Part shown: piece after piece, positions 9,966-38,300 of the stretch
Position numbering within the stretch: the first letter of the stretch is position 1
How the letters are laid out: every line of letters starts with the position of its first letter
From: Chiloscyllium plagiosum
Lineage: Eukaryota
Length of the DNA stretch: 64,000 nucleotides
Direction of reading: 5' to 3'
Assembly: GCF_004010195.1 (NCBI RefSeq)
Contig: NC_057752.1
Coordinates: forward strand, 1,474,704 to 1,538,703
Made by a program: the position numbers and the translations under genes
The notes under the pieces: generated by a model
What the model was told of the DNA's origin: nothing
The model's database searches: none
Seen by the model: only the letters and a program-made list of their open reading frames with translations

Positions 9966-10532
9966 TTTCTTCATCTGTTAACAGGATATGGGCATTGATG
10001 GCTGGGATAGTATTTATTGCCCATCCCTGGTTGCCTTTGAGAAGGTCATGGTGAATTGCCTTCTTGAATCACTGGTCCATTTGGTGTAGCTACACCCACA
10101 ATGCTGTTAGGGAGGGACCTTCAGGAGTTTGACCCAGGAACACTGAAGAAACAGTGTATTTCCAAATCAGGATGGTGAGTGGCTTGGAGATGAATGTTCT
10201 CATGTATCTGCTGTCCTCATCCTCGTGGATGGTAGTGGCCATGGCTTTGGAATTTCTTGTCAAAGGAAGTTTGGGGAATTTCTGCAGTGCATCTTGTTAA
10301 TGGTACACTTGCTGCTGTTGTGGTGCCAATCAAGTGGATTGTGTTGTCCTGGATGGGGTTAAGCTTGAGTTGTAGTTAGCCAGGAAAGTGATGAGCATTC
10401 CATCATGTTTCTGACATGTGCCTTGTCAATGTTGAAGAGGTTTTGGTGAGTCAGGAGATGAATTGCTTGATGCAAAACCAAGGCTGGAATGAAGTCAGGA
10501 GCTGAGTGTTCTGATGGAATCCAAGTTGAGTG
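9966..10532 (-). mobile_element. CR1-Zenon-like LINE, 3' part of an internally deleted copy (continues 15976-16365)
   Basis: Tail tatttattgcccatcc; sequence reads ...ggaatccaagttgag | gtatcagtgaacagtttattg... across the LTR insertion. Confidence 0.75.
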
Positions 10533-10630
10533 TGTAGTGATTGGAACAAGTGCCAGGTGGATGTCATTGAGTATGAGATCCTTGATGGGCCCAGGTTAAC
10601 AGCCCCTATCAGGGAGCCCTGGCTGACATA

Positions 10631-12560
10631 TAAACAGGAGATTGAGTCCCCTCAATTTAGGGGACTGACTCTCTGTTGCCTGGTACTATAGTCAGTGTCT
10701 TACTGTTAGTTTCTGCTTTTTTTGGGAGGGGGAAAACATGATTCCAGAACTGGCTGAATTATTTAGCCAGTTTGTTAACTGGTATTCCTCTTAGTGAGGA
10801 CTGATTGTTAAACTCCTGATGCACATAATGTGTTTCAGGTGTAACTCAGTTCTCATTAGGGGATTGTTGTTTCACTGGCTGGTTGCAGCCTCTGTGTTTC
10901 TCTTTTTGAGAAAAGGACAATGTTAATTTTATGGTAGGGCTTAGCCCTTGGACTCTAGTTTTCTTTGCTTTTTGTATGTGTCTTCACTTTTGGTGGTTGG
11001 ACTGAGCCTTTGTGGAAGACATACATTTTACCAGAAGAGCTGTTCCTGTGGGGAGGCCTAGCCCTGGGATTGGGCCTCTGAAGATTGAATACCTGTGTGT
11101 GTGCTGGGAGGTGAGCAGTTGCTGTAGCCTGGAGTTTGGGCGAAGACTTTCCTTTGGGAGTGGACCAAACGCCTGTGAGTTAACTGCACCTGTACAATGT
11201 ACTGAGTCCCTGTGAGTTGGCCCGGCTCTCCAAGGCTGGACCAGGACTCCATCGAGACTGAACACCTGTGTGCTGTCGGGTGTGCATTTGCTGCCTCCAG
11301 GAGTGGACTCTGCCCTTGGTTGTGGACTGTTTTTAGCAACGGACTCTGCAGTTTGGAGCGGACTCTATTTCTGACATTGCACATTGTATACTGGAGTAGA
11401 CTCCTCCTGGAAATGGATTCCATATCTTGAAGGCTGTATAGATTTGGACAGTGTACCAGAAAAGACTGTTTTTTGGTAACTAACTGTATTGTGGTGTTTC
11501 CTGGGTCTATCACCTGCACTGTCTTGCGTGTCCCTGGGTCTGGCAGGCCTTGCTATGAGCTGGGAGGCTCATGGGTCGTCCTGAAAGCTGTCACCCTGAG
11601 AGCCGGAGGGTGGGTAGGCTATCCTGTGAACCTGAAGGTTGGTAGGCTGTCCTGAAAGCCAGAGGGTGGGTAGGCCACCCTGATGCCAGTCGCCCCGAGA
11701 GCCAGATGGTGGGTAGGTTGTTCTGAGCACTGTTGTCCCGAGAAGGGGTAATCGGGACAAGGTACCCTAGAGGTGGTCGAAAGGTGTGTCAGGGCAGCTG
11801 AGCACCAGAAGGTGCGTAGGGGCGGGCTGAGATCTGGAAGGCTTGTGGGCTACCCTGCATGCTGTCATCCCAGGGAAGGATACGGGCTGTCCTAGAGGTG
11901 GCCGGAAGGTGTGCCAGGATAGCCCACTGGCCAGATGGCGCATCGGGGTGGGTGAGAGCCCAATGGTACATGGGGGCAGACAGAGAGCCAGAAGGCGGGT
12001 AGCCGTCCTCAGCGCTGTCACCCCAGGCAGGTACCGAGGCGGGCTGTCCCAGAGGTGGTCGGAAGGTGCTGAGGGTGGTTAGTGAAGCCGGAAGGTGGGT
12101 GGGCCGTCCTGACCACTGTCACCCTGGGCGGGTACTGGGGTGGGCTGTCCCAGAGGTGGTCGGAAGGTGCTGAGGGTGGTTAGTGAAGCCGGAAGGTGGG
12201 TGGGCCATTCTGACCACTGTCACCCTGGGCGGGTACTGGGGTGGGCTGTCCCAGAGGTGGTCGAAAGGTGTGTAGGGGTGGATTGCCTTAGAGTGGCTGG
12301 AAGGTGGGAGGGATGGGGGCTTGCTGGGTCTGTATTGTATGCACCGTTTATGTAACTTATGTACAAAAGTCATTGTCACTGTCTTTTATATGTGAAACTG
12401 GGATTTGAAGTTTGTCCTCCTCTCCCTGTAAACTGGTTGAACAGTAGGGTTTGGGGCCTGACTTTGCAGCTCCTCTCCCTTGTAAAATTGCTGTTGTATA
12501 CAGCTGTAAATGTTAACTGTTTCTTGTAAACTGTTTTGTAATTTGTTTAATAAAATATTA
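10631..12560 (+). repeat. Unclassified tandem unit 1 (1930 bp)
   Basis: Begins taaacaggag; hairpin-rich 5' part, GGACTCT cluster, GC-rich subrepeats, T-rich 3' region, AATAAA 12549-12554. Confidence 0.9.
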
Positions 12561-14390
12561 TAAACAGGAGATTGAATCCCCTCAATTTAGAGGACTGACT
12601 CTATGCTGACTGTGCCACAGTCAGTGTGTTACTGTTGTAGTTGGGTTCTGCTTTTTTGCGGGGAGGGGGGGGAACCTGATTTCTGAACTGGTTGAATTAT
12701 TTAGCCAGTTTGTTAACTGGTATTCCTTTTAGCGAGGATTGTATGCATCAGGTAGTTTAGAAATCAGTGTTTCGGGTGTAACTCCATTGTCATTCGGGGA
12801 TTGTTTCACTGGCTGGTTACAGCCTGTGTTACTCTTTTTTTTTTTGTCCTTTTCTCAAAAGTAAAAAAGAGAAATGTGGATTTTATGGTAGGGCTTAGCC
12901 CTTGGACTCTAGTTTTTTGTTTTTTGTATGTGTCTTCACTTTTTTTTGGTGTTTGAACTGAGCCCTTGTGGAAGACATACATTCTACCAGAGGAGCTGTT
13001 CCTGTGGGGAGGCCTAGCCCTGGGACTGGGCCTCTGAAGATTGAACATCTATGTGTGAGCTGGGAGGTAAGTACTTGCTGTATCCTGGAGTTTGGGAGAA
13101 GACCTTGCCTTCAAGAGTGGACCAAAACCCCTGTGAGTTAACTGCTCCTTTAAAATGTACTGTGTTCCTGTGAGTGGCCCTGGCTCTGAGGATGGGCCAG
13201 GGCTCCATGGAGACTGAACACCTGTGTGCTGCTGTTTGGAGTGGGCTCCACTTCTGACAATGCATGTTGTAAACTGGAGTAGACTCTGTGTTCCTGAGAA
13301 TGGACTCTATATTTTTGAAGACTCTATATCTGGACTCTCTGTGTACCAGAAAGGACTCTTGTTTGTTTGTTTGTTTGTTGATGATTAACTGTCATGTTGT
13401 TTGTTGGGTCTATCATCTGCACTGTCCTGTGTATCCCTGGATCTGGCAGGCCTTACTGTGAGCTGGGAGGCTCATGGGTCGTCCTGAAAGCTGTCACCCT
13501 GAGAGCCGGAGGGTGGGTAGACCACCCTGATGCCAATCATCCTGAGAGCCAGATGGTGGATAGACCTTTCTGAGCGCTGTCATCCCAAGAAGGGGTGATC
13601 AGGACGGGCTGTCCTAGAGGTGGTTGGAAGGTGCGTCAGAGCAGCCAAGAGCCAGAAGGTGCGTAGGGGCAGGCTGGGATCTGAAAGGCTTGTGGGCTAC
13701 CCTGCACACTGCCCTCCCTGGGGAGGGGGATGGGCTGTCCTATAGGCGGCCAGAAAGTGTGTCAAGGGAGCCCACTGGCCGGATGGTGCATCGGGGTGGG
13801 TGAGACCCCAATGGTACGCTGGGGCAGACAGAGCTGGAAGGCAGATAGCCATCCAATCTGTCACCCCGGGCAGGTTCCGGGGTGGGTTTTCCTAGAGGTG
13901 GTCGAAAGGTGCTGAGGGTGGTTAGTGAAGCCGGAAGGTGGATAGGCCGTCCTGACCGCTGTCACCCCGAGCGGGTACCGGGGTGGGCTGTCCTCGAGGT
14001 GGTTGGAAGGTGTGTCAGGGCGGACCGAGAACTGGAAGGGGCATGGGGTGGACCAAGAGCCGGAAGGTACGTAGGGGTGGGCTGCCTTAGAGCGGCTGGA
14101 AGGTGGGAGGGGTGGGGGCTTGCTGGTCTGTATTGTCTGCACTGTTTTTATGTAACTGGATTGGCTTTTTATGCACAAATGTCATTGATGTCTTTTCATG
14201 TTTGAAATTGGGATTTGAGGTTTGTCCTCATTTCCCTGTAAACTGGTTGAGTGGTAGGGTTTGGGCTGGGTTTTGCTGCTCCTGCCCATTGTAAAATTGC
14301 TGTTGTATACAGCCGTAAATGTTAACTGTTTTTTGTAAACTGTGTTTTGTAATTGCTTAATAAAATAAATAAACAAGGGGAAAAAAAAAA
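12561..14390 (+). repeat. Unclassified tandem unit 2 (1830 bp)
   Basis: Collinear with unit 1; AATAAA 14359-14364 and A10 run 14381-14390. Confidence 0.9.
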
Positions 14391-15844
14391 TAAACAGGAG
14401 ATTCAGAGTCCCCTCAGTTTAGGGACTGACTCTATGCTGGCTGGGCCACAAGTCAGTGTGTTACTGTTACTGTTGGTTTCTGGTTTTTTTTGGCGGTGGG
14501 GACCTGATTTCTGAATTGGCTGAATTATTTAGCCAGTTTATTAACTGTTATTCCGTTGGAGCGGACGGATTTCTAAACTGCCTGATGCACGCAATGTGTT
14601 TCAGGTGTAACTCCATTCTCATTAGGGGATTGTTGTTTCACTGGCTAGTTATAGCCTGTGTGTGACTCTCCTTTTCTCAAAAGTAAAAGGAGAGAAAAAA
14701 AATGTTAATATTGTGGTAGGGCTTAGCCCTTGGACTGTAGTTTTTTTTTAGTCTTTTTTCATATGTGTCCTCACTGTTTTTTGGTGTTTGGACTGAGCAC
14801 TTATGAGAAATTACAACCTTCCAGCGGAGCTGTTCCTGTGGGGAGGCCTAGCCCTGGGACTGGGCCTCTGAAGATTGAACACGTGTGTGTTGGGAGGTGA
14901 GCACTTGCTGTGTCCTGGAGTTTGGGAGAAGACCTTGCCTTCAGGAGTGGACCAAACCCCTGTGAGTAAACTGCAACTTTACAATATACTGTGTTCCTGT
15001 GAGTGGGCCTGGTTCACCAAGGATAGGCCAGGACTCCATGGAGATTGAATGAATACCTGTGGGGTGTGCATTTGCTGCCTTTGGGGGTGGGCTCTGCCCT
15101 CTGCTAAAAACTCTGCAGTTTGGAGAGGACTCTATTCTTGACAATGCACTTTGTATACTGGAGTGGACTCTGCTCCTGGGAAAGGACTCTACATCTTGAA
15201 GAAAACTTTATGGTAATGGACTCTGTGTGTACCAGAAAGGACTCTGTTTGTTTGTTGATGATTAATTGTCATGTTGTTTGTTGGGTCTATCACCTGCACT
15301 GTCCTGTGTATCCCTGGGTCTGGCAGGCCTTACTGTGAGCTGGGAGGCTCATGGGTCGTCCTGAAAGCTGTCACTCTGAGAGGCGGAGGGTGGGTAGACC
15401 ACCCTGATGCCAGTCATCCTGAGAGCCAGATGGTGGGTGGGCTGTTCTGAGCGCTGTCATCCCAAGAAGGGGTGATCAGGATGGGCTGTCCTAGGGGTGG
15501 TTGGAAGGTGTGTCAGGGCGGACCGAGAACTGGAAGGTACGTTGGGGTAAGTTGCTTTTGACTAGCTGGAAGATGGGAGGGATGGGGGCTTGCTGGGTCT
15601 GTATTGTATGCACTTTTTAATGTAATTGGATTGCCTTTTTATGTACAAATGTCATTGTTGCTGTTTGTAATGTTTGAAACTGGGATTTGAGGCTTGTCCT
15701 CATTTTCCCGGTAAACTGGTTGAACGGTTGGGTTTGGGGCCTGGCTTTGTTGCTCCTTTCCCTTGTGAAATTGCTGTTTCTTTGTATACAGCTGTTAATG
15801 TTAACTTTTTTTTTGTAAACTTTTTTTATTTTATTAAACAATTA
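14391..15844 (+). repeat. Unclassified tandem unit 3 (1454 bp)
   Basis: Collinear, with fewer GC subrepeats; ATTAAA 15833-15838; LTR resumes at taaaacagaag. Confidence 0.9.
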
Positions 15845-15975
15845 TAAAACAGAAGAGGTCAGTCTCCTAACTCGAGGGACTAGCTCTGAGCTGGCTGATC
15901 AGAGCCCACTTACTGTGCACAAGTAACTAAAGGATGACTTGGTTATGTGATCGTATCTTCTGTGTAGTTATTTCA

Positions 15976-16365
15976 GTATCAGTGAACAGTTTATTGCGAA
16001 GCAAATGCTGCTTGATAGCACTATTGATGACCCCCTTCCATCACCTTTTTTTTTTCTGATAGGGTGGTAATTGACTGGGTTGGATTTTTTTCTGCCTTTT
16101 GACATACCTGGACAGTGTTTTTGTGTCGTTGGGAGGATTCCAGTGTTGTAGTTACACTGGAACAATTTCAGAGGGCACTTGAGCCAACCACTTCGCTGGG
16201 ACTGGACTGACACATTGGCCAGGCCAAGTAAAGACAGCATGTTTCCTTCTGTAAAGGAATGACTAGGAAGGTTTTAGTGACAATGGTTTCATGGTCATCT
16301 TTCAGCTTTTAATTCCACATTTTTTTTTATTGTATTCAAATTCCACTATCTGCTGTGTTGGCATT
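15976..16365 (-). mobile_element. CR1-Zenon-like LINE, 5' part including tRNA-like head remnant
   Basis: tgctgcttgatagcact; tattgtattcaaattccactatctgc is the reverse complement of the head seen at 23015-23042. Confidence 0.65.
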
Positions 16366-37621: not shown

Positions 37622-38300
37622 ATAAAGACTTGCATTTATGTAATGCTTTTCTCAACCATTTGATGTCCCAAAGTATTTTGCAGTCAGTGAAGTACTCACG
37701 AAGTGTAGTGACTGTTGTAATGTAGAAAACGCAGCACCCAATCTGGGCACAGCAAGCTCCCATAAACAGGAGTGGCACAGTGGCTCATTGGTTAGCACTG
37801 CAGCCTCGGGCAACTGCCTGTGTGGAGTTTGCACATTCTCCTCGTGTCTGTGTGGGTTTCTTCCGGTTGCTCTTGTTTCCTCCCACAGTCCAAAGACGTG
37901 CAGGTCAGGTGAATTGGCCATGCTAAATTGCCCATAGTATTAGGTGTATTAGTCAGAGGGAAATGGGTCTGGGTGGGTTACTCGTCGGAGGGTCGGTGTG
38001 GACTTGTTGGGCCAAAAGGCCTGTTTCCACACTGTAGCTAATCTAAGCAGCACAACAGTAACCCAGGTAATCTATTTTTGTCGTGGTGCTTGGGAGAGAA
38101 ATTTTGGCCAGAACATCAAAGAGAAAAATCCCTGTTCTACATCAAAATAATGCCTTAGTTGAATGTCTCATCTCATTTGAAATACCGCACTCCTGTGGGT
38201 TTTTCACTTTGAGTTTTGTGTTCAATTCCTGGACCAGGTCCCAAACCTTGTGAATCAGAACCAAGAACGTGACCAACTGAGCCACAACTGACACTGTGTT
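37622..38300 (-). mobile_element. DeuSINE interrupted by a plus-strand HE1 SINE (37770-38046)
   Basis: aaagacttgcatttat, gaagtgtagtgactgttgtaatgtag, cacagcaagctcccataaacag, resuming cagcacaacagtaacccaggtaatc after the SINE. Confidence 0.75.

What the first reader, a model, noticed from the sequence alone, without database searches (positions are those of the whole stretch)
10533..15975. Candidate LTR-targeting retroposon: three polyA-ended units stacked at the TATA box of a solo LTR
Seen: a ~230-bp TG...CA solo LTR is split at TATAAACAGGAG. Three collinear units (1930, 1830, 1454 bp) each end in a T-rich 3'-UTR-like tract with AATAAA/ATTAAA and an A-rich tail (A10 in unit 2), and each tail abuts TAAACAGGAG or TAAAACAGAAG. 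Each unit's first ~75 bp is homologous to the LTR segment downstream of the TATA box, but the three heads resemble each other far more than the host LTR segment at 15845-15915. No recognisable protein is encoded. Established: Tx1-clade non-LTR elements are target-specific (Xenopus Tx1L inserts into the Tx1D element), and elements carrying their own target can build head-to-tail arrays. Inference: a non-autonomous retroposon that inserts just after an LTR TATA box, borrows the LTR promoter and regenerates its target for the next insertion. Alternative: one insertion followed by tandem duplication.
Basis: partly seen in the sequence, partly recalled or inferred. Interest (0 to 1): 0.8.

Follow-up and report, generated by a model that had tools for sequence, protein, structure and literature searches.

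The report
Retroposons stacked at LTR TATA box
Three separately inserted copies of a 1.5-1.9 kb non-coding, poly(A)-type retroposon lie head to tail at one exact spot in the TATA box of an old solo LTR, the same spot hit over and over by an abundant Tx1-like LINE that likely supplies the copying machinery: a known kind of target-specific retrotransposition with an unusual, SVA-like passenger.

Summary
A ~230-bp LTR (10533-10629 plus 15844-15975) is split inside its TATA box by three collinear units (10630-12559, 12560-14389, 14390-15843).

The units belong to a dispersed family (1634-2451 first-look candidates). Each window unit is closer to copies elsewhere than to its neighbours, so local tandem duplication is rejected for this locus.

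Elsewhere the unit shows the marks of LINE-mediated retroposition: 5' truncation at many points, A-rich or seamless 3' ends, and clean 11-17 bp target-site duplications, also at off-target sites. Of 23 sampled unit tails, 16 abut ATAAACAGGAG.

A very abundant LINE uses the same site (14 of 24 sampled 3' ends; a 14-bp duplication in L032). The end of its ORF2 is 35% identical to an alligator protein named after Xenopus Tx1. It is the likely driver. Its RT and endonuclease region is withheld, so clade and nuclease are untested.

Each insertion duplicates the site, which renews the target. Borrowing of the LTR promoter is untested.

LTR-targeting Tx1 families and target-sharing non-autonomous partners are in print (Kojima 2015). 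This scan noted the LINE stacks before on other DNA of this genome. The new part is the passenger: a long composite with a head taken from its own target LTR.

The parts
10533..10629 (+). 5' part (U3 side) of the host solo LTR, with two CCAAT-type boxes, ending at T|ATAAAC inside the TATA box
   Evidence: 81-89% identical to dispersed LTR copies, which start TGTAGTGATTGG.
10630..12559 (+). Unit 1 (1930 bp), the youngest copy. Site copy ATAAACAGGAG plus LTR-derived head to ~10705, unique body, repeat zone ~11560-12300, tail with AATAAA at 12549-12554, joined without an A-run to the next site copy.
   Evidence: Up to 91.8% identical to dispersed copies against 84.4% and 82.2% to its window neighbours.
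12560..14389 (+). Unit 2 (1830 bp). Same plan. The tail has AATAAA at 14359-14364, a carried site copy ATAAACAAGGGG at 14369-14380, then an A-run at 14381-14389.
   Evidence: The best dispersed copy is 86.5% identical; the nearest window neighbour ranks 21st of 52.
14390..15843 (+). Unit 3 (1454 bp). Same plan with a short repeat zone. ATTAAA at 15833-15838, joined without an A-run to the LTR's own site copy.
   Evidence: The best dispersed copy is 84.9% identical; the nearest window neighbour ranks 40th of 52.
15844..15975 (+). 3' part (R-U5 side) of the host solo LTR, starting with its own site copy ATAAAACAGAAG and ending ...GTTATTTCA
   Evidence: 77-85% identical to dispersed copies.
11560..12300 (+). 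G+C-rich variable repeat zone of unit 1. The matching zones are ~13440-14110 in unit 2 and ~15300-15590 in unit 3.
   Evidence: periods 28, 43 and 101; internal repeats; the length differences between units map here.

Best explanation
The window holds three independent insertions of one non-coding, poly(A)-type retroposon family at a single site inside the TATA box of a solo LTR, and they were likely made by target-primed reverse transcription with the enzymes of an abundant Tx1-like LINE that uses the same site.

Shown:
- The unit is a dispersed family.
- Its copies are 5'-truncated at many points.
- Its copies carry target-site duplications on and off target.
- Most of its 3' ends abut ATAAACAGGAG.
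- The LINE's 3' ends do the same.
- Within one stack, all inserts carry that stack's own variant of the duplicated 14-15 bases.

Inferred mechanism:
1. The LINE endonuclease would nick the bottom strand between T and ATAAAC, and the top strand ~14 nt downstream.
2. The exposed end (...CCTGTTTAT-3') would prime on the poly(A) tail. For the unit it could instead prime on a copy of the site that many unit RNAs carry after their AATAAA. That would give the junctions that lack an A-run.
3. The staggered cuts duplicate the site, so the next insertion finds it again and stacks grow.
4. The unit itself likely began as an LTR-started transcript. Its first ~70 nt match the R side of one LTR subfamily, and it acquired a repeat zone and its own AATAAA, much as SVA is a composite.

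Unit 1 is clearly younger than units 2 and 3 and lies upstream of them. This fits re-use of the upstream site copy, from a single case.
For: Dispersed family:
- 1634, 1638, 1696 and 2451 first-look candidates for four unit queries.

Independence of the window copies (50 dispersed copies plus the 3 window units):
- The nearest window neighbour ranks 51st, 21st and 40th of 52.
- The three units have no exclusive common node.
- Median identity to the family is 88.5, 79.1 and 79.3%.

Target preference of the unit:
- 23 tails were found in 22 of 29 loci chosen by tail similarity.
- 16 of them are followed within 50 bp by ATAAACAGGAG with at most 2 mismatches. The same stretches shuffled give 2.2%.

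Retroposition marks on the unit:
- 5' ends fall at many unit coordinates, giving copy lengths of 253-1718 bp.
- Off-target copies have duplications: L117 14 bp, L120 11 bp, L127 14 bp, L128 15-17 bp, L129 12 bp with one mismatch.
- On-target copies repeat a locus-specific variant on both sides (L106 ATAATCAGGAC, L114).

The unit RNA carries the site. In L127, an off-target copy...AATAAAATATTATAAACAGGA is followed by A9 and then the duplication.

The LINE:
- A 5'-truncated copy in L032 is flanked by the 14-bp duplication ATAAACATGATGCT.
- There are 18812 first-look candidates.
- 24 3' ends were found in 18 of 29 loci. 14 are followed by the motif within 70 bp, against 1.0% in the rest of the window and 4.4% when shuffled.
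- By eye, several of the 10 misses carry a more decayed version of the motif.
- Stack-specific variants appear in L004 (ATAAACAGGGAGAA) and L002 (ATAAACAGGGGATTC).

LINE kinship:
- 35% identity over 578 aa (E 3e-69) to an alligator protein that NCBI names 'transposon TX1 uncharacterized 149 kDa protein'.
- Relatives carry the endonuclease, RT and zf-RVT Pfam domains.
- Human L1 ORF2p reaches only E 0.0014 over 115 aa.

RNA, weak support:
- In a poly(A) single-cell run of the same species label, 208 reads lie on the stretch at 90% or more.
- Depth peaks over the unit tails (18 and 8.9 in 12310-12691).
- 11 reads run past 12557 into an A-rich stretch.
Against: - The LINE's RT and endonuclease region reads N in every long copy fetched. 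Its clade by RT tree, its nuclease type and its full 5' end are unseen.
- Unit and LINE share no 3' tail. The link between them rests on the shared site only.
- In the window the outer site copies differ (ATAAACAGGAG against ATAAAACAGAAG), so a duplication cannot be shown here.
- The window LTR's own 5-bp flanks do not match (2 of 5).
- Some arrays elsewhere look locally duplicated. Within-locus identity is 94.8% in L010 and 92.9% in L004, above their identity to the family.
- Full-length units always begin at ATAAACAGGAG. The true RNA start cannot be told apart from the duplication, and it does not fit a start ~25-30 nt after the TATA box.
- The RNA run also shows oligo-dT priming on an internal T-run in the opposite direction (loose end at 12913). 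The tail reads may therefore be internal priming.
Confidence: 0.8

Rival explanations
1. One insertion followed by local tandem duplication (unequal crossing-over) made the three units.
For: The units are head to tail and collinear. Some arrays elsewhere do look duplicated: L010 repeats an 1847-bp period that includes the LTR 5' part, and its two copies are 94.8% identical.
Against: Each window unit is nearer to dispersed copies than to its neighbours: the nearest neighbour ranks 51st, 21st and 40th of 52. Pairwise identities of 80.8% and 75.8% are about what independent decay from a common source gives. The three 3' junctions also differ in kind: no A-run, carried site plus A-run, no A-run.
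Confidence: 0.04
2. The unit is moved by some other, non-specific LINE. It lands at the LTR site mainly because its RNA ends in a copy of the site and starts with LTR-like sequence, so that homology rather than a site-specific nuclease guides it, or recombination with LTR-like DNA does.
For: Many unit RNAs carry ATATTATAAACAGGA before the tail. Most on-target junctions have no A-run. Unit and LINE share no tail. Odd joints between a head piece and the last ~30 bp of U3 occur in L019, L002, L136 and L155.
Against: The LINE itself has no homology to the site at its 3' end, yet is found there in 14 of 24 cases with 14-bp duplications. Tiny unrelated A-tailed snippets also sit at the site. A site-specific cut therefore exists, and it is the simplest source of the unit's preference. 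Off-target unit copies have duplications of the same length class as the LINE's, 11-17 bp.
Confidence: 0.12
3. The units are internal parts of LTR retrotransposons joined LTR-internal-LTR by recombination, so this is a retrovirus-like array and not retroposition.
For: The head is homologous to the LTR's R side. Arrays of LTR elements that share LTRs are known (recalled, not looked up here).
Against: The U3 part is missing at the inner junctions. The units end in AATAAA and A-runs, are 5'-truncated, and have 11-17 bp duplications at non-LTR sites. LTR-element integration makes short fixed duplications, and the LTR family here shows 5-bp ones. No gag or pol signal lies in the units.
Confidence: 0.02

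Closest known systems
Tx1-8_Crp and Tx1-4_AMi, crocodilian Tx1-clade LINEs (Kojima 2015, PMC4494074; passages read)
   Same: [quoted passage not shown] Our LINE's best named relative is an alligator protein named after Tx1.
   Different: The passages read give no position within the LTR and no long non-autonomous partner. The paper's supplementary figures, which may show the sites, were not seen. Homology between our LINE and these two families was not tested, because no Repbase sequences are on hand.
SINEU-3 with Tx1-Mar in crocodilians (same paper)
   Same: A non-autonomous retroposon shares the narrow target of a Tx1 group, and this is taken as evidence of trans-mobilisation. Heads are derived from a multicopy sequence, and inserts are stacked and truncated inside the target. 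By the paper's criterion a family is target-specific if more than 20% of its flanks carry the target. Here the figures are 58% and 70%.
   Different: SINEU is short with snRNA-derived heads, and its target is a Mariner DNA transposon. Our unit is 1.5-1.9 kb, has a head derived from its own LTR target, a variable repeat zone, and its own AATAAA.
Xenopus Tx1L in Tx1D (cited in PMC4494074)
   Same: A Tx1-clade LINE that inserts into one site of another transposon family.
   Different: The target there is a piggyBac-type DNA transposon, not an LTR promoter.
SVA and LAVA composite retroposons of apes (recalled; only search listings seen)
   Same: Works alike: non-coding, kilobase-sized, composite, with a part derived from an LTR element, a variable repeat zone, a poly(A) signal, and movement in trans by a LINE without a shared tail.
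   Different: No sequence relation. SVA inserts nearly at random by L1. This unit is site-specific, and its LTR-derived part is at the 5' end.
R2 and R1 of rDNA (recalled; R2 co-transcription is mentioned in PMC4494074)
   Same: Target-specific LINEs whose RNA can carry flanking target sequence that helps precise priming and that rely on the target's transcription.
   Different: Different clades and nucleases. Here the role of the carried site copy is inferred from junction types only.

Membership tests
Non-autonomous LINE-mobilised retroposon (TPRT product) | Many dispersed copies | tested here: met
   1634-2451 first-look candidates. Scored copies lie on many contigs at 80-92% identity.
Non-autonomous LINE-mobilised retroposon (TPRT product) | Variable 5' truncation with a fixed 3' end | tested here: met
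   Copy lengths of 253-1718 bp, starting at many unit coordinates, among 18 copies with a readable 5' end out of 23.
Non-autonomous LINE-mobilised retroposon (TPRT product) | Target-site duplications of about 7-20 bp flanking single copies | tested here: met
   L117 14 bp, L120 11, L127 14, L128 15-17, L129 12 with one mismatch; on target L106 and L114.
Non-autonomous LINE-mobilised retroposon (TPRT product) | A-rich 3' tail after a poly(A) signal | tested here: inconclusive
   A-runs are present in window unit 2 and in L105, L107, L115, L120, L127 and L128. Most on-target copies join the site without an A-run.
Non-autonomous LINE-mobilised retroposon (TPRT product) | No coding capacity of its own | tested here: met
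   No frame is conserved between units. 0 Pfam families for the 6 frames scanned.
Non-autonomous LINE-mobilised retroposon (TPRT product) | 3' tail shared with the partner LINE (the stringent type) | tested here: not met
   The best match is 13 bp at E 0.2. If the LINE is the driver, it would act on the tail or site copy as L1 does on SVA and Alu.
SINE (pol III head) | Head derived from tRNA, 7SL, 5S or snRNA | tested here: not met
   0 tRNA genes and 0 Rfam matches. The head aligns with the LTR.
Tx1 clade of non-LTR retrotransposons (the LINE) | Placement in an RT-domain tree with Tx1 references | not testable with these tools
   The RT region reads N in all long copies. No labelled reference set is on hand.
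Tx1 clade of non-LTR retrotransposons (the LINE) | ORF2 plan of AP-type endonuclease, RT and a C-terminal CCHC zinc knuckle | tested here: inconclusive
   The CCHC part was seen: zf-RVT at E 4e-5 and 24.6 bits, under the 27.5 cut-off. The endonuclease and RT were seen only in relatives (PF03372 and PF00078).
Tx1 clade of non-LTR retrotransposons (the LINE) | Closest named relatives are Tx1, not L1 | tested here: met
   35% identity over 578 aa to an alligator protein named after Tx1; a catfish protein bears the same name. Human L1 ORF2p reaches E 0.0014 over 115 aa. The names are NCBI's automatic ones.
Tx1 clade of non-LTR retrotransposons (the LINE) | Sequence-specific insertion | tested here: met
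   14 of 24 3' ends carry the strict motif against 1-4% expected. Duplications are stack-specific.
Solo LTR of an LTR retrotransposon (the target) | TG...CA ends and short fixed flanking duplications | tested here: met
   For the family: 21 intact copies, of which 10 have 5-bp flanks matching at 4 or more of 5 positions and 3 match perfectly; chance is ~1.6% per copy. For the window's copy the flanks match at 2 of 5, so it is not met there.
   Only weak signs: Integrase_H2C2 at E 0.018 next to one copy, and three copies followed by TGGTGA.... The internal stretch fetched has an N run.

The most novel reading that the evidence does not exclude
A three-tier parasite chain. A Tx1-like LINE is dedicated to the transcription-start region of one LTR retrotransposon family. 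On top of it rides an SVA-like pol II composite retroposon that captured its head from that same LTR. The composite's RNA ends in a copy of the target, so it can prime on the nicked site by homology (junctions without poly(A)). It rebuilds a promoter-plus-target module at each insertion, and so forms self-extending arrays at LTR promoters.
Probability: 0.4. Interest if true: 0.65.

Novelty: new variant of a known kind. Interest (0 to 1): 0.55.

Why it matters
Target-specific LINEs are models for safe-harbour insertion and for how endonuclease, RNA and target co-operate.

This genome offers thousands of natural insertions at one 14-base site. They come from the LINE, from unrelated snippets and from a long composite passenger. 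Rules of priming can be read from the junctions: tail against target homology, truncation, and the length of the duplication.

It is also a case of one transposon class disabling or exploiting the promoter of another. An insert at this spot in a 5' LTR would cut U3 off from R.

The passenger shows that SVA-like composites are not peculiar to apes and L1.

Tried and rejected
- RNA holders: no RNA holder was listed for the stretch.
- RNA lay: reads are mostly 90-95% alike, so they come from other copies. The run is 3'-biased and shows internal priming. It cannot give starts and gives only weak support for ends. X11 laid nothing.
- Stack order against age across other loci: rejected as a test. 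The loci were chosen by the similarity of their central copy, which is always the upstream one that could be seen.
- Full-length LINE: the copy with the longest apparent frame turned out to be an N run, so the '1773 aa' frame was an artefact. The LINE's 5' end and ORF1 were not seen. The DNA before the N run in L103 holds a unit tail, a decayed site copy and an inverted head-like piece, not a clear LINE start.
- LTR superfamily: frames next to LTR copies gave no Pfam family above cut-off.
- A second site in the window: an exact ATAAACAGGAGTG at 37762 lies in an unrelated repeat beside a SINE and has no LTR around it. It is taken as chance or unexplained. No other LTR copy or LINE stack lies in the window.
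- Print: no paper on Tx1 targets in sharks, and none on such composites in fish, came up in four further searches of the held library. Repbase and Dfam could not be searched.
- One search failed on a frame with stops and was resent without it.

Full report
**What is in the window**

Reading 10200-16300 confirms the finding's anatomy.
- A ~230-bp LTR begins at 10533 and runs to ...GGCTGACAT|ATAAACAGGAG at 10629/10630.
- The LTR resumes at 15844 (ATAAAACAGAAGAGGTCAG...) and ends ...GTTATTTCA at 15975.
- Between the two halves lie three collinear units: 10630-12559, 12560-14389 and 14390-15843.

Each unit has the same plan:
- It starts ATAAACAGGAGATT...
- It has a ~70-bp head that aligns with the LTR segment after the TATA box.
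- It has a unique body and a G+C-rich zone of 28-, 43- and 101-bp repeats. The copy number of these repeats explains most of the length differences.
- It has a T-rich tail with AATAAA or ATTAAA.

The three 3' junctions differ in kind:
- Unit 1 runs AATAAAATATT straight into the next ATAAACAGGAG.
- Unit 2 has AATAAA, a second site-like ATAAACAAGGGG, an A-run, then ATAAACAGGAG.
- Unit 3 runs ATTAAACAATT into the LTR's own ATAAAACAGAAG.

The units are only 75-81% identical to each other. They hold no conserved frame. The 6 frames scanned gave no Pfam family, and there is no Rfam family and no tRNA.

**The LTR is a real family, and the break is a hot spot**

The two LTR halves have 1091 and 1099 first-look candidates in the 3.56-Gb genome.

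I read 29 loci taken by the 5' half. One reads N. My classification of the other 28:
- 18 are unoccupied at the site.
- 8 carry foreign sequence right after ATAAACAGG.
- 2 are otherwise broken.

Intact copies run TGTAGTGATTGG ... CCAAT ... GACAGATATAAACAGGAG ... GTAAATAAAGGGTGACTTGG ... GTTATTTCA. Among 21 intact copies, 10 have 5-bp flanks that match at 4 or more of 5 positions. These are therefore solo LTRs.

Internal genes were seen only as weak traces, and one internal stretch is withheld.

**What sits at the hot spot elsewhere**

Three kinds of insert are found, all in the LTR's orientation, and all followed by an A-rich end and ATAAACAGG.
1. The unit of this finding, full length or cut at the 5' end.
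2. Pieces of ~190 bp up to over 800 bp. These proved to be 3' ends of a LINE.
3. Snippets of 20-60 bp with A-tails.

L032 gives a clean case. A 5'-truncated LINE carries the end of ORF2 (CCHC motif; zf-RVT), a 3' UTR and an A-tail. It is flanked on both sides by ATAAACATGATGCT, a 14-bp target-site duplication that starts at ATAAAC.

In stacks, every insert carries the stack's own variant of these 14-15 bases: ATAAACAGGGAGAA in L004 and ATAAACAGGGGATTC in L002. This shows that the repeated motif is duplicated target, not a part of the inserts.

**The LINE is dedicated to this site**

The ORF2 end has 18812 first-look candidates.

In 29 loci chosen by that protein alone, 24 LINE 3' ends could be recognised, in 18 loci.
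- 14 are followed within 70 bp by ATAAACAGGAG with at most two mismatches.
- The rate is 1.0% for random 70-bp windows of this window, and 4.4% for the same A-rich stretches shuffled.
- By eye, several of the ten misses carry a more decayed version, or the LTR's R side.

**What kind of LINE**

Every long copy reads N over its RT and endonuclease part. I did not go round that.

The unmasked last 603 aa of ORF2 come from L078.
- They align collinearly, at 35% identity over 578 aa, with an alligator protein that NCBI names 'transposon TX1 uncharacterized 149 kDa protein'.
- The relatives found carry the AP-endonuclease, RT and zf-RVT Pfam domains.
- Human L1 ORF2p matches only marginally.

A Tx1-like LINE is therefore the best reading. 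It rests on automatic names and not on an RT tree.

**The unit is a retroposon in its own right**

In 29 loci chosen by tail similarity, 23 tails were recognised, in 22 loci. Of these, 16 abut the site motif within 50 bp, against 2.2% when shuffled.

Walking upstream from the tails gave the following:
- Copies of 253-1718 bp start at many different unit coordinates.
- On target, they are preceded by the LTR's U3 end plus the site, or by an A-tail plus the site.
- Five off-target copies have clean duplications of 11-17 bp: L117, L120, L127, L128 and L129.

In L127, an off-target copy, the unit ends ...AATAAAATATTATAAACAGGA, then A9, then the duplication. The source RNA therefore carried a copy of the site before its tail.

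The same 'site copy, A-run, site' pattern is seen on target in L105, L109, L115 and L110, and in window unit 2.

Most on-target junctions have no A-run at all. I infer that the nicked target end (...CCTGTTTAT-3') can pair with that carried copy instead of the tail.

Unit and LINE share no tail. The LINE would therefore act on the unit as L1 acts on SVA or Alu. The shared site is the only link between them.

**Independent insertions, not duplication**

I compared 50 distinct dispersed copies with the three window units over ~630 bp.
- Unit 1 is up to 91.8% identical to copies elsewhere, but 84.4% and 82.2% to its neighbours.
- The nearest window neighbour ranks 51st, 21st and 40th of 52.
- No node holds the three units alone.

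Median identities to the family are 88.5, 79.1 and 79.3%. Unit 1 is therefore clearly younger, and it lies upstream. This fits re-use of the upstream site copy, but it is one case.

My attempt to test the order in other stacks was biased by how the loci were chosen, and I dropped it.

Local duplication does occur elsewhere: L010 and L004.

**Heads**

I sorted 43 distinct head contexts (my sorting):
- 12 follow the LTR's U3 end.
- 20 follow a unit tail.
- 5 follow a LINE tail.
- 6 follow something else.

All begin at or within (ATA)AACAGGAGATTCAGAG. No off-target full-length copy was found, so the RNA's true start cannot be told apart from the duplication.

The head matches one LTR subfamily best (L026 type). 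I infer that the unit began as a transcript started in such an LTR.

A start ~25-30 nt after the TATA box would not include the first ~15 bases that all heads share. 'Borrowing the TATA-driven promoter' is therefore untested and not obviously right.

**RNA**

No RNA holder was listed. I laid a poly(A) single-cell run of the same species label.
- It put 208 reads on the stretch at 90% or more; 167 of them are only 90-95% alike, so they come from sister copies.
- Depth peaks over the unit tails, in the direction expected for sense RNA.
- 11 reads run past 12557 into AAAAATAAATAGGAC followed by A's.

This fits polyadenylation just after a carried site copy. The same run also shows priming at an internal T-run in the other direction, so I count it as weak evidence.

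**Comparison with what is known**

I read passages of Kojima 2015 (PMC4494074). They state that:
- Many Tx1-clade LINEs are target-specific.
- Xenopus Tx1 sits in Tx1D.
- SINEU-3 shares the Mariner target of Tx1-Mar and is taken to be mobilised by it.
- Some Tx1-Mar families carry heads derived from snRNA genes.
- Tx1-8_Crp and Tx1-4_AMi prefer specific groups of LTR retrotransposons.

The kind is therefore known. Not found in print in my searches: the site inside the LTR's TATA box, and a kilobase-sized, SVA-like, site-specific passenger whose head comes from its own target. The supplements of that paper, Repbase and Dfam were not seen.

This scan had already noted the LINE stacks at this TATA box on two other pieces of this genome (e1-7789243 and e1-7788809). 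Neither note mentions the 1.9-kb unit, and look-ups by sequence found nothing.

**Verdict**

It is a new variant of a known kind, of moderate interest.

Noticed in passing
L010 1136-3885 (G000:C24:11967053-11970937): A block of LTR 5' part, ~230-bp unit tail, ~1 kb of unit and ~500 bp of other DNA is repeated with a period of 1847 bp. Its two unit copies are 94.8% identical. This is a local tandem duplication of an already occupied site, unlike the window.
   Followed up: partly
L019 ~1595-1800; L002 1394-1510; L136 and L155 near 1500: A recurring odd joint: a 40-95 bp unit head is followed by the last ~27-38 bp of the LTR's U3 and then by a fresh ATAAACAGGAG plus head or LTR. It may be a long duplication, a template switch, or recombination at GTTAAC-like microhomology. 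It is not explained.
   Followed up: no
L108 (two copies) and L114: Truncated units in two loci start at the same unit coordinate (TACCAGG..., coordinate 1414 of window unit 2). The next insert in L114 starts there as well. This is either a short subfamily or a favoured 5' joining point.
   Followed up: no
window 12549-12570, 14381-14395 and all stacks: An A-tail joined to ATAAAC creates AATAAA at the 3' junction, so every insertion places a poly(A) signal just before the LTR's R side.
   Followed up: no
window 37750-37800: An exact ATAAACAGGAGTG lies at the 5' edge of a tRNA-like SINE inside an unrelated repeat, with no LTR around it. A 13-mer match is unlikely by chance in 64 kb, yet no link to the LINE was found.
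   Followed up: partly
L103 1040-2570 (G000:C24): A long array of CTG/CAG-rich repeats of roughly 60 bp lies between a decayed site copy with an inverted head-like piece and the masked LINE body. Whether it is the LINE's 5' region is unknown.
   Followed up: no
L131 (G000:C2:146300128-146303385): A unit cut at coordinate 147 abuts an inverted LINE 3' end, which may be a twin-priming type inversion.
   Followed up: no
window 12883-13073 and 10973-11163: The poly(A) single-cell RNA reads here lie in the direction opposite to the units and begin at a T-run (loose end at 12913). This is antisense transcription through the locus with internal oligo-dT priming.
   Followed up: no
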